Source: a virus. From it: a DNA stretch of 64,000 nt. The position numbers were made by a program, and so were the translations under genes. The notes beneath the pieces are model-generated. The model was not told the DNA's origin and searched no databases. It saw nothing but the letters and a program-made list of their open reading frames with translations. This document shows, in pieces, positions 14,214-50,863 of the stretch. How positions within the stretch are numbered: position 1 is the first letter of the stretch; each line of letters opens with the position of its first letter. Where the stretch lies: the IMG/VR virus record IMGVR_UViG_3300006163_000001; one strand, given 5' to 3'.

Positions 14214-14290
14214 GCGACCATGATTGATGCGGAGTCCCGGCAGCAGGGGTGCCTGCCGGACTACCGCACCACCACGACAAGGGGGCGAGT

Positions 14291-15574
14291 ATGGCCAGAC
14301 GAGCGCGAGACGTCTACGTCGAATGGCGCGGCGGCACATGCCGCGTGAAGTGGTGGACCGGCGAGTACCACGACGACGGCCGCAAACGCTTCGAGTCCAA
14401 GGGCGGCTTCACCGACGAGGACGAAGCCTACGACTACGGCCTCGACAAGATGAGCGAGATCCGGCACGGCACTGGGGTCTCCAACCGCGACGGCGCCACC
14501 CTCATGACGGACTGGATCGAGGACTGGTTCGCGGCCACGGACCACACCTATACGACACACAAGAGCTACAAGGCCATCATCAACAAGCACATTCGCCCGT
14601 ACTTCCGCGGCAAGACCGTCGGCGAGGTCGACGTCATCGCCTACCGGGCCTTCCGGATGCACATCCAGAAGAAGCTGCCGGCGGCGGGAAGCGTGCGCAA
14701 CGTCATGATGGTGCTGAATATGATCCTCGACGATGCGGTTCCCCGACTCATCAAGGTTTCGCCCGTCGAGCGCAAGCGGCAGCGCGGCCGGTACGTCAAG
14801 AAGACGCAGCGGGAACGCAAGCGGGACATGGACATCGCCGCCGTCGACCAGCTGGCACGCAACGCCGAGGTCGTCTTCGGCTACCCGGGCTACGTCATGA
14901 TGTGGACGATGGCCGTGACCGGCATGCGGCCTGGCGAGCTCTTCGGCCTGCGCCGCGAGTACTGCTACCCCAACTGGCCGGCCAACGACCCCCGCCCGGA
15001 TCCGGATGAACAGGAACGGTACGAGGACGACGTGCTCCGCTACGGCAAGGGTGAAGGGCTCATGCCGGCCATTCGCGTGCAGCAGCAGGTGCAGCAGGAG
15101 AAGGGGCGACTGGCTGAAGTGCCGCCGAAGTACTTCTCCTACCGGACGCTGGTGGTACCTCAGTTCCTGGCGGACATGCTGGAGAAGCTGCTGGCCTCGC
15201 ACGACAGGCAGTGGGTCTTCCCTGCCATCGAGGGCGGATGCTTGGGGACGGCACGGTTCTCGGCCGACTACTGGCCGCCCATCTCGCAGGGCGCCGAGGA
15301 GCGCAAGAAGGTCCGCGGCGGACGGAATCAGCGGCCCGTGATTCCTGTCGTGCCCGACTTCGACGGCAAGCGCATGTACTTGCTCAGGCACGGCCACAAG
15401 GCATGGCTGGACGAGGACGGGCACAGCCGGTTCGCGGTGGAGTCCCGGATGGGCCACGAGGTGCCGGGAGTTGAGGGCACGTACAGCAGCGTGACCGTGC
15501 CGATGGAGCGTGCGATTATGGCGGCGCTGCAGGAGCGCTGGGAGAGGCACCAGGAGGACCGAGACGGCTCCTGA
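14291..15574 (+). CDS. int: Tyrosine integrase
   Basis: ATG at 14291 after AAGGGGG. C-terminal catalytic pattern LRHGHKAWL...MGHEVPGVEGTYSS (R..HxxR..Y) and an N-terminal SAM-like domain. Confidence 0.9.
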   Translation: MARRARDVYVEWRGGTCRVKWWTGEYHDDGRKRFESKGGFTDEDEAYDYGLDKMSEIRHGTGVSNRDGATLMTDWIEDWFAATDHTYTTHKSYKAIINKHIRPYFRGKTVGEVDVIAYRAFRMHIQKKLPAAGSVRNVMMVLNMILDDAVPRLIKVSPVERKRQRGRYVKKTQRERKRDMDIAAVDQLARNAEVVFGYPGYVMMWTMAVTGMRPGELFGLRREYCYPNWPANDPRPDPDEQERYEDDVLRYGKGEGLMPAIRVQQQVQQEKGRLAEVPPKYFSYRTLVVPQFLADMLEKLLASHDRQWVFPAIEGGCLGTARFSADYWPPISQGAEERKKVRGGRNQRPVIPVVPDFDGKRMYLLRHGHKAWLDEDGHSRFAVESRMGHEVPGVEGTYSSVTVPMERAIMAALQERWERHQEDRDGS

Positions 15575-24836: not shown

Positions 24837-25079
24837 ATGACCGATGTTCTGGCCCGGCGGATGGCGGACAATCAGGTCCGCCTGTTCGCCGAGTCTCTGG
24901 CCCGGGACGCTGACCGGCTCGCCCAGTCAGCCCGGCAGTACGCCGACGACACGGCGGACGGCAAGCCGGAGTCTGGCGGCGCCTATCGGCTCGCCCAGGC
25001 TGCCGCCGACCTACTTCGGCAGGCATCCCGCCTCGACGGCATGCGCGACATCGCCGCACTCATCGACAAGGAGGCCTGA
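24837..25079 (+). CDS. Hypothetical protein (80 aa)
   Basis: ATG after AAGGAGAG. Confidence 0.55.
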   Translation: MTDVLARRMADNQVRLFAESLARDADRLAQSARQYADDTADGKPESGGAYRLAQAAADLLRQASRLDGMRDIAALIDKEA

Positions 25080-25081
25080 CC

Positions 25082-25288
25082 GTGCAGACGAAGCCCCGTA
25101 AGCCGTGGCGGGTGATCCTCACCCAGAACGGCGTCCAGCTCGTCGAGATCGACCACAGCAGCGAGGCCAAGGCCTTCGAGCACGTGCGGACGGCGCTCAA
25201 GGCTGGCGCCGACACCGCGAAGGTCATGCAGTGGGAAGACGGACGCTGGTGGCACTTCGAGACCATGCACGCCGAGGAGGTGCAATGA
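25082..25288 (+). CDS. Hypothetical protein (68 aa)
   Basis: GTG start 3 nt after the previous stop. Confidence 0.5.
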   Translation: MQTKPRKPWRVILTQNGVQLVEIDHSSEAKAFEHVRTALKAGADTAKVMQWEDGRWWHFETMHAEEVQ

Positions 25289-25467
25289 CCCGCGAGGAGT
25301 ACGAGGCCCAACTCCGCCGCCTCGACAACGACATCGAAGCCGCCTACGCCACATTCAACCGCGCCCGCGACCACTGGGACGCACTCAGCAAGGAACGCCG
25401 CGAACTCCACTGGCAGTGGCGACGCCAGCAGCAAGCCGACGCCCTGGATGCCGCCGCCGAGACGTGA
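25285..25467 (+). CDS. Hypothetical coiled-coil protein (60 aa)
   Basis: ATGA coupling. Confidence 0.5.
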   Translation: MTREEYEAQLRRLDNDIEAAYATFNRARDHWDALSKERRELHWQWRRQQQADALDAAAET

Positions 25468-25469
25468 GC

Positions 25470-25500
25470 GGTCCCCGCCTGCCGTTAACAGGCGGGGACC
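25470..25500. terminator. Bidirectional terminator hairpin
   Basis: GGTCCCCGCCTG-CCGTTAA-CAGGCGGGGACC, a perfect 12-bp stem between convergent operons. Confidence 0.7.
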
Positions 25501-25585
25501 ACCCCGAAGCGTAGCCGCACAACGAAGCCGCCCCCGCTCCCCCGCCGCCATCGGCAGCGAGAGGAACGAGGGCGGCTCTGTTCGG

Positions 25586-27214
25586 TCAGGCGGCCTGGTT
25601 CTCCCACGGCCAGGCGGCGTCGCGCCCGCGCGAGAGCAGGTCGACCATGGTGAACAGCTTGTCGGAGAAGCCGGCCACCTCGTACCGGTTGGGCTTGCTG
25701 CTGTCGATGGTGGCCTGCGCGTAGCCGGTGGTGTTGATGCCGAACATGGGGACGTGCGCCGGGATCGCGTCGGACACAGATACGTCGGAACGTCGGCCGT
25801 AGCCCCAGCCCAGACCACGTGTTCCGTAGCCGGGGTGAGCAAATGCCTGCATGTCGGAGATGATGACGACCCGGTCGTGGCCCCTGAACGACGCCTGCAG
25901 TGCGACCACCGTCTCGGTTCCATGGCCGACTTCGCCGATCCGGTTGCAGAACGCCTCAGCCTGACGGAGGACGGTGCCGCCCTTGGTGAGCGAGTGCTGG
26001 AAGGCGCCGTCTGCGTAGCCGACGAGGTCTACATCGCAGCCGCGCGCGGCGAGAGCGACACCGAAGAGGGAGCCTACGTCGACGTGCCGGATCTGACTCT
26101 TGCCGGACACGCTGTTCCGCATCGACGCCGACGTGTCGACGAGCACGAGGGTGCGGCCCGTCAGGGCGGGGATGTTTGCCGTCGACTCGGACAGCGCCTG
26201 CTCGAGCGCATGCCCCCAGCGCAGCGACGGCGCGGCGCGGTAGGCGGACAGGAACCGGTACGGGAACTGCCGCGAGCGGCGGACCTCTTCCCGGTCAGCC
26301 AGCCGTGCACACACCTGGGCTGCGACCTCATCCGGGACGCCGGCCTCGTCGAAGTTCCTGAGATTCCTCGTCAAGGCCATCAGCCCCATCTGCGGGATGA
26401 TCGCCGACCAGGCGGCAGCATCCATCTTCCCGAGGGACGACAGTTGCTCCCACGTCATGCCGGCGTCGCCGAGCCGCGCCGGATCGGCGAGGAACCAGGC
26501 GCGCCGCTCCGCCTCGGGCATCTCCATGGCGGCCCGGTAGGCGGACAGGATCGGGAGCCGATCGGTGACGCGGACCGTGCCGCGGTTCCAGCGCCGGTCG
26601 GCCAGGTAGTCGAACAGGTCGGCCTGCCACTGTCCGCGGGGCTCCGGCTTGGCCAGGGCCACGATGTCCGCCATCCGCCACTGCGACGCGGCGCCGTCGT
26701 ACTTGAGCGCCGACTTCTCCGTGTACAGGCGCGCCACCGCATCCGCGACACCCCGCTGCACACCGCCGGGCAGCGTCTTCTTGCCGGTGCGCTGCTTCCA
26801 GTAGGCGAGGAACTCGGCGGGCTCGTCGGCCCGCAGCATGGCGTCGGCGACCATCTTCCGCACCGGGATGGTTGGTTCGCGGTCGCAGCCCGTCTTGCGG
26901 GCGAGCGCGGACTCTGCGGCCATGACGATGGCCGCGGACCGCATGTTCATCTGGCCGCGCAGATACGGGACGAACGCGGCGACCCAGTCGGGGTCCTGCT
27001 TGGTGGCCGCGTGGACGAGGTTCCGGAAGCGCTGGTCGCGGTCGCCGGCCTTCTCGTAGAAGGTGTCCTCGCCGACCATGTTGGTGGCGGCGAAGATGAA
27101 CAGGTCGCTCTTCACGTCGCGGGTGAAGGCGGCGCCGCCCTCAAAGGTGGCCGTCGTCCCGGTCGTAGTCACGGGGCTGGAGGGTGCGGTGCGGGTGCGG
27201 GCGAACTTCGCCAT
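25586..27214 (-). CDS. rsr: Ro60 ortholog (TROVE domain + vWA/MIDAS domain)
   Basis: ATG at 27214 after GAGGAG. N-terminal TROVE-like region (FAATNMVGEDTFYEKAGDRDQRF...DPDWVAAFVPYLRGQMNMRSAAIV) and C-terminal vWA with LVLVDTSASM (DxSxS). Confidence 0.88.
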   Translation of the reverse strand: MAKFARTRTAPSSPVTTTGTTATFEGGAAFTRDVKSDLFIFAATNMVGEDTFYEKAGDRDQRFRNLVHAATKQDPDWVAAFVPYLRGQMNMRSAAIVMAAESALARKTGCDREPTIPVRKMVADAMLRADEPAEFLAYWKQRTGKKTLPGGVQRGVADAVARLYTEKSALKYDGAASQWRMADIVALAKPEPRGQWQADLFDYLADRRWNRGTVRVTDRLPILSAYRAAMEMPEAERRAWFLADPARLGDAGMTWEQLSSLGKMDAAAWSAIIPQMGLMALTRNLRNFDEAGVPDEVAAQVCARLADREEVRRSRQFPYRFLSAYRAAPSLRWGHALEQALSESTANIPALTGRTLVLVDTSASMRNSVSGKSQIRHVDVGSLFGVALAARGCDVDLVGYADGAFQHSLTKGGTVLRQAEAFCNRIGEVGHGTETVVALQASFRGHDRVVIISDMQAFAHPGYGTRGLGWGYGRRSDVSVSDAIPAHVPMFGINTTGYAQATIDSSKPNRYEVAGFSDKLFTMVDLLSRGRDAAWPWENQAA

Positions 27215-27243
27215 GCGTCGGTCTCCTCGGCAAGTTGAGGGTT

Positions 27244-27422
27244 CCGGGCCGACGGTCAACTGCTGGGCGCCGCGAGTACCTGTCGCGTGAGCTACATAGC
27301 GTGCTGCCGTTACACCACAGCCAGGATCACCTGGCCACCAGGATTCGAACCTGGACTACTCGAACCAGAATCGAAGTATGCCCCTGCTGCGCTTCGCGGC
27401 GCCTATGCAGTTGTCGGCCCGG
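27244..27422 (-). ncRNA. Y-RNA-like RNA B (YrlA-type: long terminal stem plus circularly permuted tRNA-Gln-like core)
   Basis: The 5' CCGGGCCGA/CAACTGC/GGCGCCGCG pairs with the 3' CGCGGCGCC/GCAGTTG/TCGGCCCGG. Core at 27300-27376: hairpin with a UUCUGGU loop, T arm CCAGG-TTCGAAT-CCTGG, 7-bp acceptor stem closed by GTGATC, then a D arm GTGT-AACGGCA-GCAC. It ends 30 nt upstream of the Ro ATG. Confidence 0.7.
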
Positions 27423-27445
27423 CCGCGAGGCGACCAGAACGAGGG

Positions 27446-27625
27446 CGGCGACTGAACACGGGAGGCTGGCGAGTACCAGGCGCGCGAGCTACGTAAGCGC
27501 TCTAGCCAACTGAGCTACACCGACCGAGGTCGGCGACAGGACTCGAACCTGCGACCTCTCGCTTAACAGGCGAAGTAGGCCCGCACTGCGCTTCGTCAGC
27601 CACCCGTATCCAGTTGTCGTCCCCG
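27446..27625 (-). ncRNA. Y-RNA-like RNA A (YrlA-type: terminal stem plus circularly permuted tRNA-Asn-like core)
   Basis: Terminal stem in the same register as unit B but with a different sequence (GGCTGACG/CGCCAGCC, ATAC/GTGT, CAACTGG/TCAGTCG). Core at 27498-27575: hairpin with a CUGUUAA loop, T arm GCAGG-TTCGAGT-CCTGT, acceptor CGCCGAC/GTCGGTG closed by CTCG, and a D arm GCTC-AGTTGGCTA-GAGC. Confidence 0.7.
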
Positions 27626-27782
27626 AAGGGTGCTGCGAGTACCTGGCGCCTGAGGAACTGATTCCAGAGCAGGGAAGTAACCCCAGGCTTCGCTTCGCGG
27701 CGATCGCCACCGTAGCAACAGGGCACGCCAGACGTCTCCACCTTTTGCCCTTTTCGCAACATGACTTGCCGAACGTGCGAAT

Positions 27783-27814
27783 CGCCCCGCCCTCCCCGAT
27801 GGGAGAGCGGGGCG
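27783..27814 (-). terminator. Hairpin terminator ending the late operon upstream of the Y-RNA/Ro unit
   Basis: CGCCCCGC(C)CTCCCC-GAT-GGGAG(A)GCGGGGCG, followed on the minus strand by an AT-richer spacer. Confidence 0.55.
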
Positions 27815-27827
27815 AACACCTGTCGGT

Positions 27828-27884
27828 TCAGAGGCCGAGTGCGACGGACAGGCTGACGTAGAGATGGACGAGAACGGACAGCAT
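27828..27884 (-). CDS. Tiny hydrophobic ORF (18 aa, MLSVLVHLYVSLSVALGL)
   Basis: ATG 5 nt after GAGGGGGTG. Speculative. Confidence 0.2.
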   Translation of the reverse strand: MLSVLVHLYVSLSVALGL

Positions 27885-27946
27885 CGGTTCACCCCCTCTC
27901 CCGGCTGGTGGGGCAGTCGGGCTGCGGCCGGTGGGGCGGCCGACGG

Positions 27947-28264
27947 TCACAGGGTGGGCGCGGGCGTGAGTCCGTGTTCGGCGGCGATCGCGAGACCCTG
28001 CTTGGCCAGGGCGACGCAGCGGCGCGGGATCGCCGACACGTCCCGGCCTGCCAGGATGGCGTCTATCGAGGCGTGAACATCGCCATGACATGACGGGCAG
28101 ATCGCGACGATAGGCGTGGCCACCGGCACTCCGGCCGCCTCCCACCAGCTGAGCGGGGCGACATGGTGCCGGTTCAGCACCGCACAGCCGTGCCCCTTAT
28201 ATAGGGAGCAGGCCTGCAGTAGGACGCGGCCGTCGGCGACGACCAGCTCCCGCGGCGTGCTCAC
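27947..28264 (-). CDS. Small HNH endonuclease
   Basis: NRHHVAPLSWW...CPSCHGDVH. Confidence 0.7.
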   Translation of the reverse strand: MSTPRELVVADGRVLLQACSLYKGHGCAVLNRHHVAPLSWWEAAGVPVATPIVAICPSCHGDVHASIDAILAGRDVSAIPRRCVALAKQGLAIAAEHGLTPAPTL

Positions 28265-28428
28265 TCCGCCTCCGCCGTGTCGAAGGGCGGCAGGTCGGGT
28301 TCGAGGAACGGCTGGATCGATGGCGCCGGCAGGGGCTGCGGGTCGAGGCGGCCGAGGCGTTCCAGCGAGCTGGCATCGGCGGCCGTGGTGTCGCGGCGCG
28401 GTGTGCGGGCGACGGGCGGTTCAGGCAT
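28261..28428 (-). CDS. Hypothetical Pro-rich protein (55 aa)
   Basis: GTGA coupling to the HNH gene. Below the ORF-track cutoff. Confidence 0.4.
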   Translation of the reverse strand: MPEPPVARTPRRDTTAADASSLERLGRLDPQPLPAPSIQPFLEPDLPPFDTAEAE

Positions 28429-29182
28429 CGGCACTCCTATCGGTCTGAGCTACCGGTGTCGCCAGCCGGGGAACGCGGGCAGCCTGTTGGACGCGCCGGT
28501 ACGAGGCGGTCGCCGTGAACATGGCCGCGCCCAGCAGTCCCTGCGGTGACGGCGACGGATTCGGCGTCGAGGAGCCGGTCTCAGGGCAGTCGTACTGCGG
28601 CGCGCTGTCCGGCGAATCCGCGGTGCGCTGGCAGGTGTAGGTGTGGGTGACCCCGGCCGCATCCGTCCACTGCCACGTCCAGCCGGCGGGCGGATGCCCG
28701 TCTGTTCCGTCCTGGCCGTCGACGCCGGCCGGTCCCGGCACGCCTTGCGGTCCGGGAGGCCCGGGGCTGCCTTGGGCTCCGTCGGCGCCGTTGGCTCCGG
28801 CGGCCCCTGACGCGCCGGGGGACGGCGTAATCGTGGGTGCGGCCTTGCCGGGATCCCCCTTGTCGCCCTTCGGTCCGGGAGGCCCAGGAATTGGTACGGG
28901 CACTGCGGCCCGGTCAGGCAGATTTTTGACGGCCTTCGTCGGATCCGGTGCGACCGGCGTCGAGCCCGCGGACTTGATCTGCTGCCGCAGTGATCGGACG
29001 TCGCCAGCGAGGACGCTGACTGCATTGCCGCGCAGGTTCGCCTCAGACTCGAGGCCATCGGCGCGATGCGACTCCTGGGCGATCAGTAGCAGTGCGACTG
29101 TTACGCCGCCGCCCACGAACAGCAGGCCTGCGGTGAGAAGTCCCAGCCAGCGGCGGCGCCATAGCTGTTCGCCGCGCGTCAT
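28421..29182 (-). CDS. Membrane-anchored collagen-like repeat protein
   Basis: N-terminal TM (LGLLTAGLLFVGGGVTVALLLIA), a coiled coil, then G-x-y tracts (GPPGPKGDKGDPG; GAAGANGADGAQGSPGPPGPQGVPGPAGVDGQDGTDG). Confidence 0.8.
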   Translation of the reverse strand: MTRGEQLWRRRWLGLLTAGLLFVGGGVTVALLLIAQESHRADGLESEANLRGNAVSVLAGDVRSLRQQIKSAGSTPVAPDPTKAVKNLPDRAAVPVPIPGPPGPKGDKGDPGKAAPTITPSPGASGAAGANGADGAQGSPGPPGPQGVPGPAGVDGQDGTDGHPPAGWTWQWTDAAGVTHTYTCQRTADSPDSAPQYDCPETGSSTPNPSPSPQGLLGAAMFTATASYRRVQQAARVPRLATPVAQTDRSADA

Positions 29183-30172: not shown

Positions 30173-30561
30173 GTTGCCTCCCGCTGCCGCACGGGCTCGA
30201 TGTCGACAGCGGTGAGCGCGTCGGGCCAGTTGGTGAACCGCACGGCGCGGTCGTCGATGTACGCGATCGCGGCCAGCTTCCGGTCCGTGACCAGCAGGAC
30301 GCCCTGCTCATTCCAGAACCCGGAGCGCGGCACGCGGGTGGTGCACTCGAAGGCGTAGCCGGACTTCTGCTCGATCCACCGCGCGACCTGCTTGGCATCG
30401 CGGGTGGTGTGGATGAACACGGCGTACCGCTGCATGAGCTGCGACAGGGCGACAACTGCGCCGGGCTTCCAGTCGCCGTAGATCGTGCCGTCGTGCCAGC
30501 CCTTGTCGTAGCTGTGCAGGACGCCATCGAAGTCCACGGCGACCGTCTGGACAGCGGTCAC
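30169..30561 (-). CDS. HAD-superfamily phosphatase/nucleotidase-like protein
   Basis: GTG at 30561 (GTGA). VAVDFDGVLH (DxDG motif I), then IHTTR and YIDDR. Confidence 0.6.
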   Translation of the reverse strand: MTAVQTVAVDFDGVLHSYDKGWHDGTIYGDWKPGAVVALSQLMQRYAVFIHTTRDAKQVARWIEQKSGYAFECTTRVPRSGFWNEQGVLLVTDRKLAAIAYIDDRAVRFTNWPDALTAVDIEPVRQREAT

Positions 30562-31436
30562 TCGACCACCGTGAACCCGTGCTTCGCGCCGAGCTTCGAC
30601 AGGCTGGTCTGGCCCGGGATGCCGTCGGCTGCACTTCCGGTGTAGTTGAGGCGCTGCTGCCACGCCTTGTAGGCGGAGACCGTCTTCGATCCGAAACTGC
30701 CGTCGACATACTGGCTGGCCAGCAGGCCCTCCGCCTGCAGCGCCTTCTCGACGAGAAGGACTTCGGCCTTGTAGCTGGCGTGTCCCTGCGCGGCGGCCGG
30801 GTCGTGCTCCGCGGCGTACACGGCGTGCGCGAGGCTGACCTTGGGCTTCGTCGTCGGAGTGACCGGCGTGGGGCCGACGGCGAACAGGTCCGGCATCGGT
30901 CCCGGATCGACATGACTGTTCCCAGGGATCTGGTGGTGCCCGTAGTGCCCGCCGTGGTTCAGCCAGGTGTCCAGCGGGACGGTGTCGCGGGCGAACGCGG
31001 TCGGCGCACCGCCGGGCCAGGTGTCGGCGATACCCAGCGACCGCAGCCACGCCATGATGCCGTCGAGGCCCTTACATGGGGTGTCGCGGACAGTGGCGTA
31101 CTTCTTGCCGTTCACGGTCTCGCCCGCGGTGAACACGGTCTCGATCTGGATGCAGTAGGCGCCCGTGCGGTTCGTCCGCACCGTGCCGTCGTTCTGCAGC
31201 GACAGGCTGCGGCTGTCAGCCGGGAACATCTGCGCGATCTCGCCGGTGAACGGCTCCCACAGCAGGTGGGGGGCCATGTCGGCGCCGCCTCCGGTGAACC
31301 AGCCGAGCTCGTTCTTGAACGACCAGTCCTTGTCGTTGCTGGTGATGTGCCAGACGGCCCGCGCCGGGCCGCCGTCCATCGCACCGGTGTTGCCGAGCGA
31401 GTGCCGGGCCGCGCCGGGCATCCACAGGTCGACCAT
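30558..31436 (-). CDS. Endolysin: N-acetylmuramoyl-L-alanine amidase plus C-terminal peptidoglycan-binding domain
   Basis: GHHQIPGNSHVDPG (amidase_2/PGRP signature). C-terminal LVEKALQAEGLL...VDGSFGSKTVSAYKAWQ (PG_binding_1-like). Confidence 0.88.
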   Translation of the reverse strand: MVDLWMPGAARHSLGNTGAMDGGPARAVWHITSNDKDWSFKNELGWFTGGGADMAPHLLWEPFTGEIAQMFPADSRSLSLQNDGTVRTNRTGAYCIQIETVFTAGETVNGKKYATVRDTPCKGLDGIMAWLRSLGIADTWPGGAPTAFARDTVPLDTWLNHGGHYGHHQIPGNSHVDPGPMPDLFAVGPTPVTPTTKPKVSLAHAVYAAEHDPAAAQGHASYKAEVLLVEKALQAEGLLASQYVDGSFGSKTVSAYKAWQQRLNYTGSAADGIPGQTSLSKLGAKHGFTVVE

Positions 31437-36784: not shown

Positions 36785-39700
36785 TCAGCCGACGAACGTC
36801 ATGTGGCGTGCGATGTCGGCGGCCTGCTCGGCACTGGTCTGCTTGGCGCCGTTGAGGGTGATATTGGTAATGCGGTCGCCTCCCCGTCCCGCCGCGCTGT
36901 CCCCGTAGCTGTGGCTGGCGTACCGGCTGGCCGGCACGAGGTGATAGCCGAGTGCTGCGGCAGACGCGGCTAGCAGCGCACGCGAGCGGGCCGTGCTGGT
37001 GAGCGGGATGAACGCCTCCGCCACGCCCGCCTCGCCGGCCAGTACCGCGGTGGGCCTGGTGAGGATCCCTCCGGCTGCCATCGCTTTGCCGCCCTGCGAC
37101 ACCCACTGCCTGACGAACACGTCTTTGTTCGCATGGGGCAGTGCGGCGATCTGGGCGGTCATCTTGGGGACGATCGACTTGATGACGTCGGGGCCGAGTC
37201 CGGCGGCGATCAGGTCGGCGTAGCCGCGTCCGGGTCCGCCTCGCAGGGTGGACAGCAGGATCAGGCTGTTGGTGAGGTCGTCTCCGGTGAGCGTGGCCTG
37301 TGCTTTGCCGACCGTCTTGTTGGCGGTCGCTGCGGCTTTGCTGTCGCCTGCAGCCTGGTGGGCGAGCGCCTGCGCGTTGGAGTCGCCCTGCGCGGCCAGA
37401 GCCTGCGCCAGATCGCCGTAGCCCTCGGCAGCCAGTTTTTGCAGGTCGGCGGCAAACTGCTGGTTCGTCTTGGTCGACGCGTTCAGCTGCTTGTCGAAGT
37501 CCGCCAGGGTCGCTTTGGCGACGTCGCCGGTCTTCTGCAGCTTGGCGACGATGTCCTTGAACTGCTTCGCCGACGCCCCGGCGAGGGAGTTGACGAGGGC
37601 GTAGCCGTCCTGGCCCATGTTCTCCAGGAGGGATTCGACCTCCGCCCCACCCCGCTTGGAGATCTTCGCGAGGTTGCCGCGCCACTTCTCCGTCGCCGCC
37701 ACCGACGCGTTGAGCTGCTTCTCGTAGGCCTTCAGGTCGAACCCGGTCGGCGGCTTCGCGCCCCGCCTCACCCCGAGGGCCTTGTCGGCGTCGTAGACAT
37801 GCTGCCGGTCCTTGGCGACCGTCTTGTCGGCGGCCCTCTTCGCCCCCTCCGCCTTCCCGACCCGCTGCTCCGCGGCCCGCAACTGGGCGGCGGTGTGATG
37901 GTGATGGCGGACGTAGGACAGGTTCTTTTCGGCAGCCGACAGGGCGTCGGCAGCCTTCCTCTGCTCCTTCACCGCCGAGGTCAGCGTGTTCCAGGCGTCC
38001 TTGAGGGCCTGGACCGCATTGTCGTAGCGGGTCTTCGCATCCGACGGGCCGCCTAGGACGGGCTGCCCTGTCGGCGCGTAGGTGAAGCCGGCGAGACCGC
38101 CCGATGCATACCGTCCGGCGTTGAGCCGGTCGAACATGCCCACGCCGTACTTGGCGACGGCCGCCGCCTTGATGACGTACTCGCCGTTGGAGATGAGTGC
38201 CGGGATGCTGTCAGATGTGCCCGTGCCGGGGCCTGCGACGGGGCCTCCGTAGGGGATGTATTGGACGATGCCGCCGTCGGCGCGGTGGATGAGGCCGCCG
38301 TCCTTGTGGGGGCCCTGGCTGTAGTACTTGGACGGGTCGACGCCTGTTGCCACACCGTTGATCTGCACGGTGACGGTCTTGCCGTGCACGCTGTTGATCG
38401 CACCCTGGATCGCGCTAGCCGCCGCGATCGGCCCGCCGGCTGGCAGGGTGATGGTGACCTGCTTGCCGTGGGTGCGGGAGATGTGGAAGCCGAGCGCGGA
38501 CAGGGCAGCCTCTGCGCCCCTGGTGAGGGCGCTGACGGTGACGCTTTTGCCGTGCGTGGCGGCGACCTTGCGCTGTACCGCCTGCAGTTCTGCGATCGTT
38601 GCCGCCACATCGGCACCCACCACGACCGTCTTGCCCGGCATCTTCTTGGCGATCAGCGCATCAAGGGCCGCGGCTGCCTTACCCGTCGGCGCGGTGATCT
38701 CCATCTGTCGGCCGCCCGGCAGCGTCTTGACCTTGAAGCCGACCGATTCGATCGCCTTGAGGGCGTCGCCGGTCAGCGCCGACACCTTGATCGTGGAGCC
38801 CTTCGGCATGTGCCCGGCCAGGCCCTGCACGTACAGCAGCTGCTTCTGGGTGTCCGAGAGGCCAGGCGTGGACATGGTGATGGCCAGGCTGCTCGGGATG
38901 AACCCCATCTGATTCGCGAGCACCTTCGCTTGGTCGGCGGACAGGCCGAACGCCCCGCCCGCCTTGACCGCCGCAGACCAGGCCGTCTGCATGTGCTTTT
39001 CGGCCTGCTGCAAGGCCGGGACCGTGCCGACGTTGTTGGCGCGCGCGAAATCGTAGGTGGCCTGCGCCGCGCTTGCGGTCTGCTCGTTCAGCGCCTGCAG
39101 CTTCGTCCACAGGCTCTGCCCGTTCTGGCTGGTCGTGTTGAGGCTGCCGTCGACCTGCAGAAGAGCCTTGCCGTAGCCCTGCGAATGGTTGACGCCGTCC
39201 TTCCATGAGGAGTTGAGGTCAAGGATCGCGGCGTTCATGTTCGCAACCGCCGCCTGGACGTCCAGCTCGCCGCCCGAGAGCAGATCGAGGGCAGTGTGCA
39301 GGGCCGTCGCCTTCGTGTCCGCGTCCGACGCCGAGTCGCCGAGGGTCTTGATGGCGTTCTGTAGCCGCCCCGTCGGGTCGGTGGCGTCCAGGGCGGCAGC
39401 CCCCGAGCCCTTGGTGGCGTCGGCGAGATCCTTCTGCCTGTTCCGGGCCGTCTCGAACTCGCCGGACAGGCTGCCGAGCGCGTCCCCCGCCTTCTTGTAC
39501 GTCTCCCCCAGCGGCGTGTACACCTTCTGCGTGGTGCGGCCGTTGGAGACGAACCTGACGTTCTCCTCGGCGGCCGAAGCGAGCCGCTTCCGCAGGGCGT
39601 CGATGCTGGTGCCCTGTCCGAGGTAGGCGTTCGTGAGTTCGGTCGTGCCGACGTGAGCCTGCTGCATCACGGTCAGCAGCTGAGTTTTGCCGTCCCTCAG

Positions 39701-42064
39701 CTTTGCGTCCGCCAGGGTCTGCACGGCGGCGGCGCGGACGCTGCCGTCTGCCACGCCGGCGGACTGCTGGAGTGCCTGGGTGAGGCTGGAGATCCGCTGC
39801 TGGTGCGCGGCTGCCGCTGCGGCGGCTTCCTGCTGTTTCCGGGCCAGCATGTCGAGGCCGATCATGGCGCCGGCGATGGCGACGCCCCACGGGCCGCCGA
39901 GGAATCCCCACAGGCCGCGGGCCGCGCCCATCAGGCCGCGCCCGGCGCCCGTGCCGATGGCGGCCACCGCGCCGCCGGCCGCCGACCGGAATCCGACCAG
40001 CCGACCACCCGCCTCCTGAATGCCAGCGGAGGCGCTGCGGAAGCTCGTGCCCATGGCGGCGATCGTCGGAGAGCGGGCTTCCAGGGCCGCGAGTCCCGAC
40101 CCCCAGCGGCCCAGCGACACCCCGGCCTGCGAGGCAAGGATGGCCTGCGTCTGCATGGCGCCGCGCACACCGTTGAACGACGCCACAGCCGAACGGCCGT
40201 AGCCGGCGACGGCGTCACGCATGCCCTGGATCTGCCCGCGGAACGGCCGCATCGCCAGCATCGACAGGACGGTCAGCTGGATCGGGCCCGGCAGGGCTCC
40301 GAAGGCGTGGGCGATGCCGCCCACCAACTCCCCGATCGGCCGCAGAATGCCGGACATGTCACCGATCAGGCCGACGCCGACCTGCAGTCGCCCTGTGGCC
40401 ACGCCAAGGGCGCCCGCCCCCGAAGAGACGGACGTGAGCAGATCGTGCATGCCGCCCACCAGGGGGGCGGCTGCCGCGCCGGCGTTGCCGAGCACCTTCT
40501 CCAGCGACTGCACGGACGTGATGGCCAGCGGCACCGCGGCGACAAGCGCCCCCGACAGCGCCGCCTTCACCGGGGTTGCCAGACCGGCTACGGCTCGCCC
40601 GATGCCGCCCTCCGCAGCATGCAGCTTCGCCTCGACGGCGGGCCCGTAGATGTCCCACAGGTCCCCGGCGATACGGATCCCCGACTTGATGTACGGGATT
40701 GCGTCCGAGACGCCCTTCGACATGCCGCGCGTAATCTTCTCCAGGCCGGGTGCGACCCCGAGGTACACCTGCAGGAATGCCGACTGGAGTTGCTTGCCCA
40801 GGCCGCGCATCGCGCCGCCCAGCCCCTTCGACTCCGCCGCGGCCAGGGCTGCGGCGCCGCCCACACGGCCCACCTGGATCCCGAACTGCTGGAAAGCCGT
40901 CCCGCCCTGGTGCGCGAGCGCCACCATGCCAGCGAGCGCCGGCTTGCCGAACGCCATCGCGGCGGCGGCCGTGAACTGCTGCGTCGACAGGTGCTCGGAT
41001 GCGGTGCCGAGCTGGGTGATGACGTAGCCGAGGCCCTTGAACTTGCCGTTCGAGTCGAACGCCTGGATGCCGAGTTCGTGCAGGCCTTTCTGGGCGAGCT
41101 TGGTCGGCTTGGCCATGTTGACCAGCGCAGACCGAAGGGCGGTGCCCGCGGTTTCGCCGATGATTCCGGACTTGCCGAGCAGGCCGACTGCGGTGGCCGT
41201 GTCCTTGATGGAGATGCCCATGGTGTGGGCGATGGGGCCCACGTATTTCATGGCGTAGTAGATGTCCATGAGTTCGCCGGACGCCGAGTTGGCCGTGTTG
41301 GCGAGGACGTCCGCTACATGGGTGGCCTCGGTCGACTTGAGGGCGAACTGGTCCATGACGTCGCCCTCGATCTTCGCCGCCGTAGCGACGTCGGTTCGGG
41401 CGGCGGCAGAGAGCTGGATGGTGCCCCGCGCGGCCTTGATGGCGTCCTGTGCGCTGAGACCAGCCTTCGCCAGCTCCACCATCGCGTCCGCGGCCTCCGC
41501 CGCGTTCGCCGACGGAAGCTTCATGTCCGCGCCGAGGGCCTGCGCCTCCCGGCCCGCCGACGACATCTGCGCCCCCGAGGCCCTGGTGACCTCGAGGAAC
41601 TTGTTCATCGCGTCGGTGTACTCATTGCCCGCATGCACGATGTCGTGCAGGCCGAACAGGATCGCGCCGCCCGCCAGGAGCGCGCCAAGGTGCTTGACCG
41701 GGCCCAGAACCGACTCGACGCCGGAGCGCACCGAACCCATTCCTGTACGGGCTGCGGCGCCCATGCGCCCGAACGCAGGCGTGGCAAGTGCGGTCTCGTC
41801 TCGCACGGCCCGCGCGCCGCGGCTGGCGGCCAATGCTGCGGCCTCGGCTTCGCCGACGCCAGCCGCGCCGCCGCGCGCTCCCGCGCCCATGGCCATCAGC
41901 CCTGTGCGGGCCGCTGCCCCGTCGACGCCGAGGGCCCGAATGCCGCGTCCGGCGACGAGGGAGGCTTCCCCGAGGGCGAGGAGTTCGCCGGTGCCGGTGC
42001 GCACGACGGTGCCGAAGCCGGGCATCTCGGCGATGACGCGAACCCGCACGGTACGGTCGGTCAC
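36785..42064 (-). CDS. Tape measure protein (1759 aa)
   Basis: Very long Ala/Gly-rich helical ORF in the canonical position, with internal hydrophobic segments. Confidence 0.95.
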   Translation of the reverse strand: MTDRTVRVRVIAEMPGFGTVVRTGTGELLALGEASLVAGRGIRALGVDGAAARTGLMAMGAGARGGAAGVGEAEAAALAASRGARAVRDETALATPAFGRMGAAARTGMGSVRSGVESVLGPVKHLGALLAGGAILFGLHDIVHAGNEYTDAMNKFLEVTRASGAQMSSAGREAQALGADMKLPSANAAEAADAMVELAKAGLSAQDAIKAARGTIQLSAAARTDVATAAKIEGDVMDQFALKSTEATHVADVLANTANSASGELMDIYYAMKYVGPIAHTMGISIKDTATAVGLLGKSGIIGETAGTALRSALVNMAKPTKLAQKGLHELGIQAFDSNGKFKGLGYVITQLGTASEHLSTQQFTAAAAMAFGKPALAGMVALAHQGGTAFQQFGIQVGRVGGAAALAAAESKGLGGAMRGLGKQLQSAFLQVYLGVAPGLEKITRGMSKGVSDAIPYIKSGIRIAGDLWDIYGPAVEAKLHAAEGGIGRAVAGLATPVKAALSGALVAAVPLAITSVQSLEKVLGNAGAAAAPLVGGMHDLLTSVSSGAGALGVATGRLQVGVGLIGDMSGILRPIGELVGGIAHAFGALPGPIQLTVLSMLAMRPFRGQIQGMRDAVAGYGRSAVASFNGVRGAMQTQAILASQAGVSLGRWGSGLAALEARSPTIAAMGTSFRSASAGIQEAGGRLVGFRSAAGGAVAAIGTGAGRGLMGAARGLWGFLGGPWGVAIAGAMIGLDMLARKQQEAAAAAAAHQQRISSLTQALQQSAGVADGSVRAAAVQTLADAKLRDGKTQLLTVMQQAHVGTTELTNAYLGQGTSIDALRKRLASAAEENVRFVSNGRTTQKVYTPLGETYKKAGDALGSLSGEFETARNRQKDLADATKGSGAAALDATDPTGRLQNAIKTLGDSASDADTKATALHTALDLLSGGELDVQAAVANMNAAILDLNSSWKDGVNHSQGYGKALLQVDGSLNTTSQNGQSLWTKLQALNEQTASAAQATYDFARANNVGTVPALQQAEKHMQTAWSAAVKAGGAFGLSADQAKVLANQMGFIPSSLAITMSTPGLSDTQKQLLYVQGLAGHMPKGSTIKVSALTGDALKAIESVGFKVKTLPGGRQMEITAPTGKAAAALDALIAKKMPGKTVVVGADVAATIAELQAVQRKVAATHGKSVTVSALTRGAEAALSALGFHISRTHGKQVTITLPAGGPIAAASAIQGAINSVHGKTVTVQINGVATGVDPSKYYSQGPHKDGGLIHRADGGIVQYIPYGGPVAGPGTGTSDSIPALISNGEYVIKAAAVAKYGVGMFDRLNAGRYASGGLAGFTYAPTGQPVLGGPSDAKTRYDNAVQALKDAWNTLTSAVKEQRKAADALSAAEKNLSYVRHHHHTAAQLRAAEQRVGKAEGAKRAADKTVAKDRQHVYDADKALGVRRGAKPPTGFDLKAYEKQLNASVAATEKWRGNLAKISKRGGAEVESLLENMGQDGYALVNSLAGASAKQFKDIVAKLQKTGDVAKATLADFDKQLNASTKTNQQFAADLQKLAAEGYGDLAQALAAQGDSNAQALAHQAAGDSKAAATANKTVGKAQATLTGDDLTNSLILLSTLRGGPGRGYADLIAAGLGPDVIKSIVPKMTAQIAALPHANKDVFVRQWVSQGGKAMAAGGILTRPTAVLAGEAGVAEAFIPLTSTARSRALLAASAAALGYHLVPASRYASHSYGDSAAGRGGDRITNITLNGAKQTSAEQAADIARHMTFVG

Positions 42065-49825: not shown

Positions 49826-50863
49826 CTACGACAAGTACCCAAAGCGCTTGAGCAAGCGGAGCAACTCGTCACGGTCCTCGGACAGGCGCAGGATCTCGCC
49901 CGGCGTCAGGCGCGGCGTCCGCAGATGAAAACGGGGCAGACCCTGCTCGACGTCGGCGCCCGTGCGGGCAAACCGCTGCCCGGTGCGCTGCTCCGCCTCA
50001 CGGCGCATCTGCTGGTAGAACTCGCCGCGCCGCGTGGTGCCTTCGAGCGTGGCGGCGACCTTCTGCCCGTAGGCGTCCAGCGTCTGCACGCCACGACTCG
50101 CGTTCACGACCTTGTAGATGTCCGCGCCGTTCCGGATCGCCTCCGCGCCACCGATCGTGAACCGGCGATCCTGCTCCGCGCGCGAGAGGTTGCTGAAGAA
50201 CGACATCGGGCTCAGGTGTCGGCCTGGATTGGCCTCCGTCGCGGGCCGGCCATAACACTGGCAGCGTTTATGACGTTGGAAGTCGGCGTTGTACCGATAC
50301 CAGCGCCCGGCGAGGATCACGCACCTCGAGCACGCGCCCGCCCGGACCACCCTCACGTAGCCGGTCACCTTACGGTTCGCGACCATCGCCACCCCAGCCG
50401 CGCCCCGGCCCGCATCGGCGACCTCCGACACCGCCATCCGCAGCAGATCCGCCTGCCCGGCAAGCATCGCCTCCTGCAACGTCAGACCATTGCCGATCAA
50501 CGTCTTCGTGCGGATCACCGGCAGATACAGCAGGCTGTCCAACGGTCGGCCATCCGAAGCCACCCCGGAAAACTCCCGCGGGCTGACCCGCGTGGCGCCC
50601 TCGCTGTAGTCGTTATGGAGCCCATCCGCGCGCACCATCGCCTCGATGTACGGCTGCCCGGTGCTCGCAGCCGCAAGCTGACCGGCCGCTACCGCCCGCA
50701 CCATCGCCGACCCCAGACCATGCAGCCACGACCGCGACAGATCCTGACCCTGAAGCCGCTTCCACAGCTTCTCCAACGTCACCGTCGTCTGGATGACGGC
50801 CCGCTGCTGAGCCCGCCCGTAGGCGTCCACAACGTCCTGGTGCGCCTGCGTCTGGACGGCCAC
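49826..50863 (-). CDS. MuF/SPP1 gp7-like head morphogenesis protein
   Basis: 345 aa after the portal gene, with a CSRC...HKRCQC Zn-type motif typical of actinophage MuF-like proteins. Confidence 0.75.
   Translation of the reverse strand: MAVQTQAHQDVVDAYGRAQQRAVIQTTVTLEKLWKRLQGQDLSRSWLHGLGSAMVRAVAAGQLAAASTGQPYIEAMVRADGLHNDYSEGATRVSPREFSGVASDGRPLDSLLYLPVIRTKTLIGNGLTLQEAMLAGQADLLRMAVSEVADAGRGAAGVAMVANRKVTGYVRVVRAGACSRCVILAGRWYRYNADFQRHKRCQCYGRPATEANPGRHLSPMSFFSNLSRAEQDRRFTIGGAEAIRNGADIYKVVNASRGVQTLDAYGQKVAATLEGTTRRGEFYQQMRREAEQRTGQRFARTGADVEQGLPRFHLRTPRLTPGEILRLSEDRDELLRLLKRFGYLS

What the first reader, a model, noticed from the sequence alone, without database searches (positions are those of the whole stretch)
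27244..27720. Circularly permuted tRNA-like cores that keep anticodon-type hairpins, with covarying terminal stems and a degenerate third copy
Seen, unit B: 5' CCGGGCCGA-CAACTGC-ATA-GGCGCCGCG pairs with 3' CGCGGCGCC-CA-GCAGTTG-ACCG-TCGGCCCGG (9+7+9 bp, with an internal loop and a 4-nt bulge). Unit A uses the same register with different sequence (GGCTGACG/CGCCAGCC, ATAC/GTGT, CAACTGG/TCAGTCG), which amounts to compensatory changes. In each core the order along the RNA is: anticodon-like hairpin (7-nt loops CUGUUAA with GUU, and UUCUGGU with CUG), a 5-nt variable region, a T arm with GGTTCGA(A/G)TCC, and a 7-bp acceptor stem whose two strands are joined by a short linker (CTCG or GTGATC) instead of being free ends. 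The 5' half with a normal D arm follows. The units therefore look like tRNA-Asn(GUU) and tRNA-Gln(CUG) permuted at position 26/27. Conserved boxes flank both units: CGACAACTG, CGAAGCGCAG, GTAGCTCNCGCG and GGTACTCGC. A truncated third set of boxes lies at 27626-27720. An anticodon hairpin retained in a Y-RNA-like scaffold is unusual to my knowledge. An alternative reading is that these are substrates for processing into tRNA-like fragments.
Basis: seen in the sequence. Interest (0 to 1): 0.8.

Follow-up and report, generated by a model that had tools for sequence, protein, structure and literature searches.

The report
Phage Y RNAs that mimic tRNA
Three small non-coding Y RNAs lie in tandem just upstream of a Ro60-like (Rsr) gene in a Streptomyces-type prophage; two carry a tRNA-shaped module, so this is a new example of the known bacterial YrlA/YrlB class, notable mainly for a well-kept anticodon-arm look-alike.

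Summary
On the minus strand, 27720-27244 holds three tandem structured RNAs. The last ends 30 nt before the start codon of a TROVE-domain Ro60/Rsr gene (27214-25586).

Units A (27614-27451) and B (27422-27244) each have a long terminal stem with a CGAAGCG / GGUACUCGC module. That stem encloses, in order:
- a 5-bp, 7-nt-loop hairpin
- a 4-5-nt variable region
- a T arm
- a closed 7-bp acceptor-like hairpin
- U8-N9
- a D arm

In 14 orthologous loci, 91-95% of pair cells are standard pairs, against 34-47% in shifted controls, and 17-25 pairs show compensatory changes.

This is the architecture of YrlA-type bacterial Y RNAs (Chen et al. 2014).

It does look like an anticodon arm. Of 124 actinobacterial units, 65 have exactly a 5-bp stem and a 7-nt loop. 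The loop consensus is Y32-U33-NNN-R37-A38. The triplet is hypervariable, even between close orthologs, so the Asn and Gln identities are not conserved.

Unit C is a conserved YrlB-like short Y RNA, not a decaying copy. Verdict: a new member of a known class, with a modest new twist.

The parts
27632..27701 (-). Unit C: a short YrlB-like Y RNA. It has the Rsr-binding module (GCGAAGCG 27698-27691 facing GGUACUCGC 27643-27635), the 8-bp helix GCCUGGGG (27688-27681) / CCUCAGGC (27655-27648), the UUACUUC motif, and a variable pyrimidine-rich apex. It has no T, acceptor or D arms.
   Evidence: RNAalifold on 14 orthologs predicts 16 pairs, 3 with compensatory changes. The GCGA/UCGC pairs are invariant. 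Boxes confirmed.
27451..27614 (-). Unit A: a YrlA-type Y RNA. Terminal stem 27614-27603 / 27462-27451 and 27601-27597 / 27468-27464. Rsr-binding module ACGAAGCGCAG (27596-27586) facing GGUACUCGC (27477-27469). Inner helix 27586-27579 / 27489-27482, which encloses the tRNA-like module.
   Evidence: 14 orthologs: 94.6% of pair cells are standard pairs against 34-47% when slid, 17 pairs have double changes, and 0 of 500 shuffles reach this. MFE fold. Rfam YrlA partial hit of 36.4 bits, E = 5e-6.
27558..27574 (-). Unit A anticodon-arm mimic: UUCGC-CUGUUAA-GCGAG. It is followed by the 5-nt variable region AGGUC (27557-27553).
   Evidence: The loop-closing pair covaries (AU 5, UA 4, CG 2). C48 pairs with G15 (Levitt pair; UA 9 and CG 5 across orthologs).
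27499..27552 (-). Unit A T arm (27552-27536, loop UUCGAGU), closed 7-bp acceptor-like hairpin (27535-27518, CGCCGAC-CUCG-GUCGGUG), U8-A9 (27517-27516) and D arm (27515-27499). If it behaves like M. smegmatis YrlA, RNase P would cut between 27525 and 27524.
   Evidence: Rfam YrlA alignment to model positions 24-84. The acceptor strands differ in sequence between orthologs but keep 7 of 7 pairs. The RNase P site is inferred from PMC4201824.
27244..27422 (-). Unit B: a second YrlA-type Y RNA. Stems of 9 + 7 + 9 bp (27422-27414 / 27252-27244; 27413-27407 / 27263-27257; 27403-27395 / 27274-27266). CGAAGCGCAG at 27396-27387, GGUACUCGC at 27280-27272. Inner helix 27387-27380 / 27292-27285. It ends 30 nt before the rsr start codon.
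   Evidence: 14 orthologs: 91.4% of pair cells are standard pairs against 34-42% when slid, 25 pairs have double changes, and 0 of 500 shuffles reach this. MFE z = -4.25.
27301..27375 (-). Unit B tRNA-like module: anticodon-arm mimic UUCGA-UUCUGGU-UCGAG (27375-27359), V region UAGU (27358-27355), T arm (27354-27338), closed acceptor-like hairpin UGGCCAG-GUGAUC-CUGGCUG (27337-27318), U-G (27317-27316) and D arm GUGUAACGGCAGCAC (27315-27301).
   Evidence: Weak RF00005 hit of 16.9 bits.
25586..27214 (-). rsr: a Ro60 orthologue of 542 aa with a TROVE domain.
   Evidence: Pfam PF05731, E = 5e-17. PHROG 850 'RNA-binding protein', E = 8.5e-55. 4507 homologues, named TROVE-domain proteins in Streptomyces where a source gives a name. 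About 40% identical to the 'Ro-like RNA binding protein' of Streptomyces phages.

Best explanation
The region encodes a tandem array of three bacterial-type Y RNAs, probably co-transcribed with the downstream Ro60 orthologue rsr in a temperate Streptomyces-type siphophage or prophage.

Shown here:
- The gene arrangement, the secondary structures and their covariation.
- The tRNA-like module with a covarying Levitt pair (15:48).
- The anticodon-arm geometry of the extra hairpin.

Inferred from work on Salmonella, M. smegmatis and D. radiodurans:
- Each RNA closes its 5' and 3' ends into a stem. An internal bulged module in that stem (CGAAGCG facing GGUACUCG) is the binding site for the Rsr ring.
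- In units A and B the distal part folds into a tRNA-like L-shape.
- That module is the effector-binding domain. It is recognised by tRNA enzymes (TruB, Dus, RNase P, the CCA-adding enzyme). It would tether Rsr to a partner such as PNPase or an RNA-repair or tRNA-handling factor.
- With a 7-bp acceptor stem, as in M. smegmatis YrlA, the closed loop is probably opened by RNase P and given CCA.
- Unit C is the YrlB-type partner, with the same Rsr module but no tRNA domain.

The hairpin is best read as the anticodon arm of an ancestral tRNA, kept as a structural mimic without decoding identity. This fits the published proposal that YrlA arose from a dimeric tRNA transcript.
For: - **Position next to rsr.** The TROVE/Rsr gene starts 30 nt downstream on the same strand.
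- **Family match.** Rfam YrlA aligns to unit A over the T arm, acceptor hairpin and D arm (36.4 bits, E = 5e-6).
- **Published hallmarks are present.** These are a GNCGAAN0-1G-like motif near the 5' end, YUAY before a stem-loop upstream of the T arm, the order T-AS-D, and a position upstream of Ro60 on the same strand (PMC4201824).
- **Covariation in 14 orthologous loci.** Unit A is 94.6% paired and unit B 91.4%, against 34-47% in slid controls. 17 and 25 pairs have changes on both sides, and 0 of 500 shuffles reach these values.
- **Levitt pair.** UA in 9 and CG in 5 sequences, no exceptions.
- **Acceptor-like stem.** It is 7-8 bp in 76 of 107 units, and U8 is conserved.
- **Unit C.** It is conserved and structured.
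- **Anticodon-arm mimic.**
  - 65 of 124 unique units have a perfect 5-bp stem and exactly a 7-nt loop, 4-5 nt before the T stem.
  - Other loop lengths give 2-15 units, and shuffles give 2.6.
  - The loop is Y32 in 60/65, U33 in 59/65, R37 in 60/65 and A38 in 60/65.
  - This replicates in 33 viral contigs: 19 of 44 units.
  - In 43 sequences chosen by spacing alone, the arm is 87.9% paired and the two inner pairs covary.
- **Phage context.** Streptomyces phages GiJojo and BRock carry a Ro-like gene preceded by 4-5 tandem TACTTC-type units.
Against: - No expression, end-mapping or Rsr-binding data exist for this locus.
- The Rfam YrlA score (36.4) is well below the gathering score (69). None of 20 actinobacterial or phage loci reached it either, so this may reflect the model's make-up rather than non-membership.
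- In units B and C the Rsr motif reads CGCGAAG, which is not a strict GNCGAA.
- No sigma-70-like promoter or intrinsic terminator was found, so the transcript limits are unknown.
- The comparative structures are 10-15 kcal/mol above the MFE.
- The effector of any YrlA is still unknown in the literature.
Confidence: 0.88

Rival explanations
1. These are genuine circularly permuted or split tRNA genes. After RNase P cleavage, CCA addition or circularisation they would yield decoding tRNA-Asn(GUU) and tRNA-Gln(CUG) for the phage.
For: - All four tRNA arms are present, with a 7-bp acceptor stem, a canonical 7-nt loop and a Levitt pair.
- M. smegmatis YrlA is cut by RNase P and receives CCA in vivo (PMC4201824).
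- Related phages place the Ro gene inside tRNA arrays.
Against: - The anticodon triplet is not conserved among close orthologs. Unit A reads GUU, GAG, GUG, CAG, UGG, GCG or AUG, and unit B's hairpin is deleted in L002-L004.
- 33 different triplets occur among 65 arms.
- The de-permuted sequences do not preferentially match Asn or Gln tRNAs.
- A large helix carrying the Rsr module is inserted at the 26/27 junction and is itself under covariation.
- Bacteria are not reported to have the splicing endonuclease used for permuted tRNAs.
Confidence: 0.04
2. The region is a decaying tandem tRNA array or tRNA pseudogenes next to a phage gene, with no function of its own.
For: - RF00005 gives a sub-threshold non-permuted hit of 26 bits in the window. 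The ortholog L097 scores 31.4 bits, above the gathering score.
- ARAGORN calls 'tRNAs' over such units in many loci.
- tRNA arrays flank rsr in L044, L077, GiJojo and BRock.
Against: - The non-permuted acceptor pairing is not maintained: a mean of 2.8 pairs within a locus against 2.9 across loci.
- The permuted acceptor hairpin keeps 7 of 7 pairs with different sequences.
- The Y-RNA stems covary strongly.
- The layout C-A-B-rsr is kept in about 16 loci with 75-94% Rsr identity.
Confidence: 0.03
3. The structures act only in cis as a long structured 5' leader that controls rsr expression, for example as a tRNA-mimicking leader sensed by a tRNA-binding factor, rather than as separate Y RNAs.
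For: - Unit B ends 30 nt before the rsr ATG, with the Shine-Dalgarno sequence just after it.
- No promoter or terminator was found between the units and rsr.
Against: - In M. smegmatis, YrlA and YrlB lie upstream of rsr in the same way. They are processed from one precursor and bind Rsr in trans (PMC4201824).
- Three independently closed units, each with its own copy of the Rsr module, suit discrete RNPs better than one leader.
Confidence: 0.05

Closest known systems
YrlA (Y RNA-like A; Rfam RF02553) of S. Typhimurium, M. smegmatis and mycobacteriophages (Chen et al. 2014, PMC4201824; Wang et al. 2018, bioRxiv 10.1101/312249)
   Same: - It lies next to rsr on the same strand, and the 5' and 3' ends pair.
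- It has a GNCGAA-type Rsr motif near the 5' end and a YUAY motif.
- The module runs T arm, closed acceptor-like stem-loop, U8-N9, D arm, with a covarying Levitt pair.
- It has a stem-loop upstream of the T arm (the 'V' stem-loop).
- The acceptor stem is 7 bp, as in M. smegmatis.
- Several Y RNAs sit in one locus.
   Different: - It scores only 36 bits against the Rfam gathering score of 69.
- The Rsr module has its own sequence (CGAAGCGCAG / GGUACUCGC).
- A 4-8-nt linker, rather than 1 nt, separates the D arm from the enclosing helix.
- The upstream stem-loop has full anticodon-arm geometry followed by a class-I-type 4-5-nt variable region. The solved Salmonella YrlA is described as lacking an anticodon loop.
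- Two YrlA-type units lie in tandem in a phage.
YrlB / Yrn2-type short Y RNAs
   Same: Unit C keeps the Rsr module and a long hairpin with a variable pyrimidine-rich apex. It lies in the same precursor region as the YrlA units (PMC4201824).
   Different: Unit C lies distal to rsr, whereas M. smegmatis YrlB lies between YrlA and rsr. It keeps the UUACUUC motif of the YrlA units, which suggests it arose from one of them by deletion. L099 and L081 show such deletions in unit A.
Circularly permuted tRNA genes of Cyanidioschyzon merolae and some archaea (Soma et al. 2007, as cited)
   Same: The 3' half of the tRNA comes before the 5' half. The acceptor stem starts as a closed loop, and the transcript ends pair.
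   Different: In those genes the ends pair to form the extended anticodon stem, as described. They are processed into real decoding tRNAs through a circular intermediate made by the splicing endonuclease. Here the formal break is at the 26/27 junction, the anticodon is not conserved, and the paired ends carry a conserved Ro-binding module.
Deinococcus radiodurans Yrn1 and metazoan Y RNAs
   Same: Both are Ro60-bound RNAs whose terminal stem carries the Ro-binding motif and whose distal domain binds an effector. Yrn1 was modelled with a possible anticodon arm (5-bp stem, 6-nt loop).
   Different: Yrn1 has the arms in another orientation and lacks a clear D arm. Metazoan Y RNAs have no tRNA-like module.

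Membership tests
YrlA-type bacterial Y RNA | Encoded within 4 kb of a Ro60/Rsr (TROVE) gene, on the same strand | tested here: met
   Unit B ends 30 nt upstream of the rsr ATG (27214). TROVE domain E = 5e-17.
YrlA-type bacterial Y RNA | Terminal stem formed by the 5' and 3' ends, with a GNCGAAN0-1G motif near the 5' end | tested here: met
   The stems covary. Unit A has GACGAAG, an exact match. Units B and C have CGCGAAG, with the first G replaced by C.
YrlA-type bacterial Y RNA | T arm, closed acceptor-like stem-loop and D arm in that order, with tRNA-like conserved loop nucleotides | tested here: met
   Alignment to RF02553 positions 24-84. Helices supported.
YrlA-type bacterial Y RNA | Compensatory Levitt pair (15:48) | tested here: met
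   UA in 9 and CG in 5 orthologs of unit A, none unpaired.
YrlA-type bacterial Y RNA | Reaches the Rfam RF02553 gathering score | tested here: not met
   36.4 bits against 69. None of 20 actinobacterial or phage rsr loci reached it either, so this may reflect the model's make-up rather than non-membership.
YrlA-type bacterial Y RNA | Bound by Rsr in vivo, carries pseudouridine-55 and dihydrouridine, and is cut by RNase P when the acceptor stem is 7 bp | not testable with these tools
   Needs immunoprecipitation, modification mapping and cleavage assays. The precedent is in PMC4201824.
Canonical tRNA gene | Detected by standard tRNA finders, with the acceptor stem formed by the 5' and 3' ends | tested here: not met
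   ARAGORN finds 0 in the window. RF00005 scores 26 and 16.9 bits, below the gathering score of 29. The non-permuted acceptor pairing is no better within a locus than between loci.
Circularly permuted tRNA gene (functional tRNA precursor) | Anticodon and identity conserved among orthologs | tested here: not met
   At least 7 different triplets occur in close orthologs of unit A, and the hairpin is deleted from unit B in three loci. 33 different triplets occur among 65 arms.
Circularly permuted tRNA gene (functional tRNA precursor) | Processed through a circular intermediate by a splicing endonuclease acting on a bulge-helix-bulge motif | not tested
   No bulge-helix-bulge search was done. Such enzymes are not reported in bacteria.
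YrlB-type short Y RNA (unit C) | [quoted passage not shown] | tested here: met
   Consensus structure on 14 orthologs. No T-loop or D-arm motifs in 27701-27632.

The most novel reading that the evidence does not exclude
The stem-loop that the YrlA literature labels 'V' would, in actinobacterial and actinophage Y RNAs, be a selected anticodon stem-loop mimic: a 5-bp stem with a Y-U-NNN-R-A loop and free drift or diversification of the triplet. These Y RNAs would then be complete tRNA mimics with the Ro-binding helix inserted at the 26/27 junction. In a phage, such RNAs could act as decoys or competitive inhibitors of host anticodon nucleases. A competitive-inhibitor role was suggested for Salmonella YrlA (PMC7790460). 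[quoted passage not shown]
Probability: 0.2. Interest if true: 0.7.

Novelty: new member of a known kind. Interest (0 to 1): 0.35.

Why it matters
- **Family reach.** The locus extends YrlA/YrlB Y RNAs to a temperate Streptomyces-type phage, where they form a three-gene array.
- **Annotation.** Current Rfam thresholds miss this actinobacterial and phage branch. tRNA finders partly misread it as tRNA genes, which affects phage tRNA counts.
- **Origin of YrlA.** About half of the 168 actinobacterial and actinophage units surveyed keep an anticodon-arm look-alike with a conserved loop frame and a free triplet. This is direct sequence support for the proposed origin of YrlA from tRNA (dimeric transcripts).
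- **A testable question.** It can now be asked whether the anticodon-loop mimic is recognised by anticodon nucleases or by modification enzymes.
- **Limit.** It does not reveal a new kind of system.

Tried and rejected
- **Standard scans.** ARAGORN and Rfam at gathering thresholds found nothing in the window.
- **Known phages.** Megablast of 25000-29000 against GenBank phages found no match.
- **Metagenome pattern scan.** CGAAGCGCAGNNNGGNNNTACTTC gave 14 loci, but only 3 were real Y-RNA loci (L081, L082, and L091, which is nearly identical to L082). The rest were chance matches in coding DNA.
- **Non-permuted tRNA reading.** I considered it because of the RF00005 and ARAGORN hits. I rejected it because the 5' strand does not covary with the first acceptor strand.
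- **Extension of the inner helix (UAC/GUA).** Rejected. It is unpaired in 5-6 of 14 orthologs.
- **Asn and Gln identity.** De-permuted sequences were compared with 46 reference tRNAs. There was no specific match, though the reference set is small and mostly from phages or phage-like tRNA arrays.
- **Promoter and terminator scan.** Nothing was found. A TANNNT box about 7 nt upstream of unit C has no convincing -35 partner, so the 5' end is undetermined.
- **Literature.** The Sim & Wolin 2018 review (PMC6047535) was not available, and Chen et al.'s supplements are not held. I therefore could not see how the 'V' stem-loops were drawn for each species.
- **Covariance model.** I did not build one. 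Motif-anchored parsing and MAFFT alignments were enough.
Full report
**1. What is in the sequence**

The feature lies on the minus strand. ARAGORN finds no tRNA in the 64-kb window. Rfam at curated thresholds finds nothing.

With permissive thresholds on 26900-28100, three sub-threshold hits appear:
- YrlA (RF02553) at 27559-27496, 36.4 bits against a gathering score of 69, E = 5e-6. It covers model positions 24-84: T arm, closed acceptor-like hairpin, D arm.
- tRNA (RF00005) at 27600-27528, 26 bits against a gathering score of 29.
- tRNA (RF00005) at 27382-27332, 16.9 bits.

The ORF immediately downstream on the same strand (27214-25586, 542 aa) is a TROVE-domain protein:
- Pfam PF05731, E = 5e-17.
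- PHROG 850 "RNA-binding protein", E = 8.5e-55.
- It has thousands of homologues. Where a source names them, they are TROVE-domain proteins, mostly from Streptomyces.

It is therefore an orthologue of Ro60/Rsr.

**2. Check of the observation**

- Unit B (27422-27244) has stems of 9 + 7 + 9 bp with an AUA internal loop and an ACCG bulge. The unconstrained MFE fold recovers them (dG -89.6 kcal/mol, z = -4.25).
- Unit A (27614-27451) has a terminal stem of 12 + 5 + 3 bp (z = -2.7).
- Both cores run in this order: 5-bp hairpin with 7-nt loop (CUGUUAA; UUCUGGU), variable region (AGGUC; UAGU), T arm (UUCGAGU; UUCGAAU), closed 7-bp acceptor-like hairpin, U8-N9, D arm.
- The four boxes are confirmed. 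GGTACTCGC occurs in all three units, with 4 matches in the window against 0.52 expected.
- My comparative structures lie 10-15 kcal/mol above the MFE. That is not unusual for a multi-branched tRNA-like fold whose tertiary contacts the energy model ignores.

**3. Comparative evidence**

I collected rsr loci from these sources:
- 80 actinobacterial genomes
- 9 further contigs encoding Rsr proteins 78-94% identical to the window's (L095-L104)
- 3 metagenome contigs
- 33 viral contigs

About 16 loci share the same layout, C-A-B-rsr.

| Unit | Orthologs | Cells that form standard pairs | Same, partner slid 1-3 columns | Pairs changed on both sides | Shuffles reaching this |
|---|---|---|---|---|---|
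| A (45 pairs) | 14 | 94.6% | 34-47% | 17 | 0 of 500 |
| B (43 pairs) | 14 | 91.4% | 34-42% | 25 | 0 of 500 |

Further points:
- In unit A the tertiary Levitt pair (15:48) is UA in 9 sequences and CG in 5, with no exception.
- The acceptor-like hairpin has a different sequence in almost every ortholog and still keeps 7 of 7 pairs.
- Unit C folds into a conserved module: GCGA/UCGC, an 8-bp helix, and a variable apex. It is a maintained short RNA, not a decaying copy.
- In L099 and L081, unit A has lost its tRNA module by internal deletion while keeping the outer stem. This shows how a C-type unit can arise.

**4. Identification**

Chen et al. 2014 (PMC4201824) define YrlA RNAs by these features:
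- They lie within 4 kb of Ro60 on the same strand.
- They have a GNCGAAN0-1G motif near the 5' end.
- They have a conserved YUAY.
- They then have the T arm, an acceptor-like stem-loop and the D arm, with a compensatory Levitt pair.

The same paper reports that M. smegmatis has YrlA and YrlB upstream of rsr, processed from one precursor. Its YrlA has a 7-bp acceptor stem, is cut by RNase P and receives CCA in vivo.

The window's units match on every feature I could test. The exception is the Rfam gathering score. None of 20 actinobacterial or phage loci reached that score either. This may reflect the model's make-up rather than the RNAs; I did not examine the seed.

The likeness to circularly permuted tRNAs, and a proposed origin from dimeric tRNA transcripts, have already been discussed (bioRxiv 10.1101/312249).

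**5. The "anticodon" hairpin**

Main set: 124 unique units from the actinobacterial loci. I recognised them only by a T arm and an upstream TACTTC-like motif.
- 65 have a perfect 5-bp stem with exactly a 7-nt loop, ending 4-5 nt before the T stem.
- Any other loop length gives 2-15 units. Shuffled sequence gives 2.6.
- The loop is Y32 (60/65), U33 (59/65), NNN, R37 (60/65), A38 (60/65).
- The middle triplet takes 33 different values.

Two further checks agree:
- In 43 sequences chosen by spacing alone, the arm is 87.9% paired in a fixed register. The two inner pairs covary: CG 21, GC 13 and AU 1 at one; AU 20, GC 7, CG 3 and UA 2 at the other.
- In the independent viral set, 19 of 44 units have the 7-nt-loop arm, and no other loop length gives more than 3.

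The geometry is that of an anticodon arm followed by a class-I variable loop: no nucleotide before the hairpin, and 4-5 nt after it ending in the Levitt partner. It is not the geometry of a class-II variable arm. The helix that encloses the module is separated from the D arm by a 4-8-nt linker.

The tRNA identities are not real:
- Close orthologs of unit A read GUU, GAG, GUG, CAG, UGG, GCG or AUG.
- Unit B's hairpin is deleted in L002-L004.
- The de-permuted sequences do not specifically match Asn or Gln tRNAs.

The solved Salmonella YrlA is described as lacking an anticodon loop. The actinobacterial and phage branch is therefore a fuller tRNA mimic than the structural prototype.

**6. The non-permuted reading**

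RF00005 and ARAGORN read the 5' strand of the Y stem, the hairpin, the V region, the T arm and the first acceptor strand as a tRNA.
- The window scores 26 bits. The ortholog L097 scores 31.4 bits, above the gathering score.
- ARAGORN calls such "tRNAs" in about 17 loci.

That acceptor pairing is no better within a locus than between loci (means of 2.8 and 2.9 pairs). The competing Y-stem and closed acceptor hairpin both covary. The tRNA calls are therefore false positives. It remains untested whether they are relics of the proposed tRNA ancestry.

**7. Context**

The window is a temperate siphophage or prophage:
- large terminase, 52273-53889
- head protease, 49829-50863
- major head protein, 47178-48509
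- tape measure protein, 36788-42064
- endolysin, 30561-31436
- integrase, 14249-15571

Known Streptomyces phages (GiJojo, BRock and others) carry a Ro-like gene about 40% identical to this one, placed inside tRNA arrays. In GiJojo and BRock it is preceded by 4-5 tandem TACTTC-type units.

**8. Mechanism**

Shown here:
- the arrangement of the genes
- the structures and their covariation
- the tRNA-like tertiary pair
- the anticodon-arm geometry

Inferred from Salmonella, M. smegmatis and D. radiodurans:
- Rsr binds at the CGAAGCG / GGUACUCG module.
- The module folds into an L-shape.
- tRNA enzymes modify it.
- RNase P opens the 7-bp acceptor loop, and CCA is added.
- The RNA tethers Rsr to an effector such as PNPase or an RNA-repair factor.

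The effector of YrlA is unknown in the literature. A competitive-inhibitor role against an anticodon nuclease has been suggested for Salmonella YrlA (PMC7790460). The anticodon-loop mimic in a phage makes that idea more attractive, but nothing here tests it.

**9. Verdict**

This is a new member of the known YrlA/YrlB class. One feature is worth noting: an anticodon-arm mimic that is widespread in actinobacteria and their phages and has been under-described.

Noticed in passing
window 14249-59000: The window is a temperate siphophage or prophage. It holds an integrase (14249-15571, +), endolysin (30561-31436), tape measure protein (36788-42064, 1759 aa), major head protein (47178-48509), head protease (49829-50863) and large terminase (52273-53889). 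Nearly all genes are on the minus strand. The Y-RNA/rsr module sits between the lysis genes and the integrase.
   Followed up: partly
L105 1269-1343 (Streptomyces phage GiJojo, PP725410.1 9796-9870): The feature annotated as tRNA-Arg(cct) just upstream of the Ro-like gene overlaps a YrlA-like unit. That unit has a CGAUGCGUAG motif, TACTTC, a T arm, then a closed acceptor hairpin and a D arm (GGTGTAATTGGCAACAC). It looks like a misread Y RNA. GiJojo and BRock each have 4-5 tandem TACTTC-type units upstream of Ro.
   Followed up: partly
L097 815-887: The ortholog of unit A, which differs from the window's copy by a few bases, scores 31.4 bits with Rfam tRNA (gathering score 29). It would be annotated as a tRNA gene, although the comparative evidence is against that fold.
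   Followed up: yes
20 loci: L001-L003, L005, L006, L012, L024, L025, L035, L047, L061, L063, L066, L069, L075, L078, L097, L101, L105, L106: The Rfam YrlA model (RF02553) reaches its gathering score in none of these actinobacterial or phage rsr loci. All of them have obvious YrlA-like units upstream of rsr.
   Followed up: partly
L044 467-2317 and L077 910-2170: Arrays of 12-13 tRNA genes lie directly upstream of the YrlA-like unit and rsr in two metagenome-assembled actinobacterial genomes. The layout resembles the phage arrangement.
   Followed up: no
L099 (S. spectabilis chromosome) and L081, unit A position: Unit A has an internal deletion that removes the tRNA-like module but keeps the outer Y stem and boxes. 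These are natural intermediates between YrlA-type and YrlB-type units.
   Followed up: partly
window 27630-27621 (minus strand): A small hairpin, CCCUUCGGGG, lies between units C and A. It is conserved in most orthologs (CCCUUCGGGG or CCCUGCGGGG). It could be a processing signal or a spacer structure.
   Followed up: no
window 28424-29182 (minus strand); L104 1-611: A collagen-triple-helix-repeat protein is encoded just upstream of the Y-RNA array in the window, and also upstream of it in the related locus L104. BRock has a collagen-repeat protein downstream of its Ro gene.
   Followed up: no
broad set of loci: Many Streptosporangiales loci carry three kinds of unit. One has a GUAGCUCA-type D arm. 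One has a GUCGUCUAGUGGCC-type D arm and a 4-nt V region. One has a T arm only, with a different hairpin in place of the D arm and no anticodon-like arm. GUU is the commonest triplet (9 of 65).
   Followed up: partly
window 26905-26986 (+): A weak Rfam RT-15 match (18.3 bits against a gathering score of 82, E = 0.09) lies inside the rsr coding region on the opposite strand. It is most likely a chance match.
   Followed up: no
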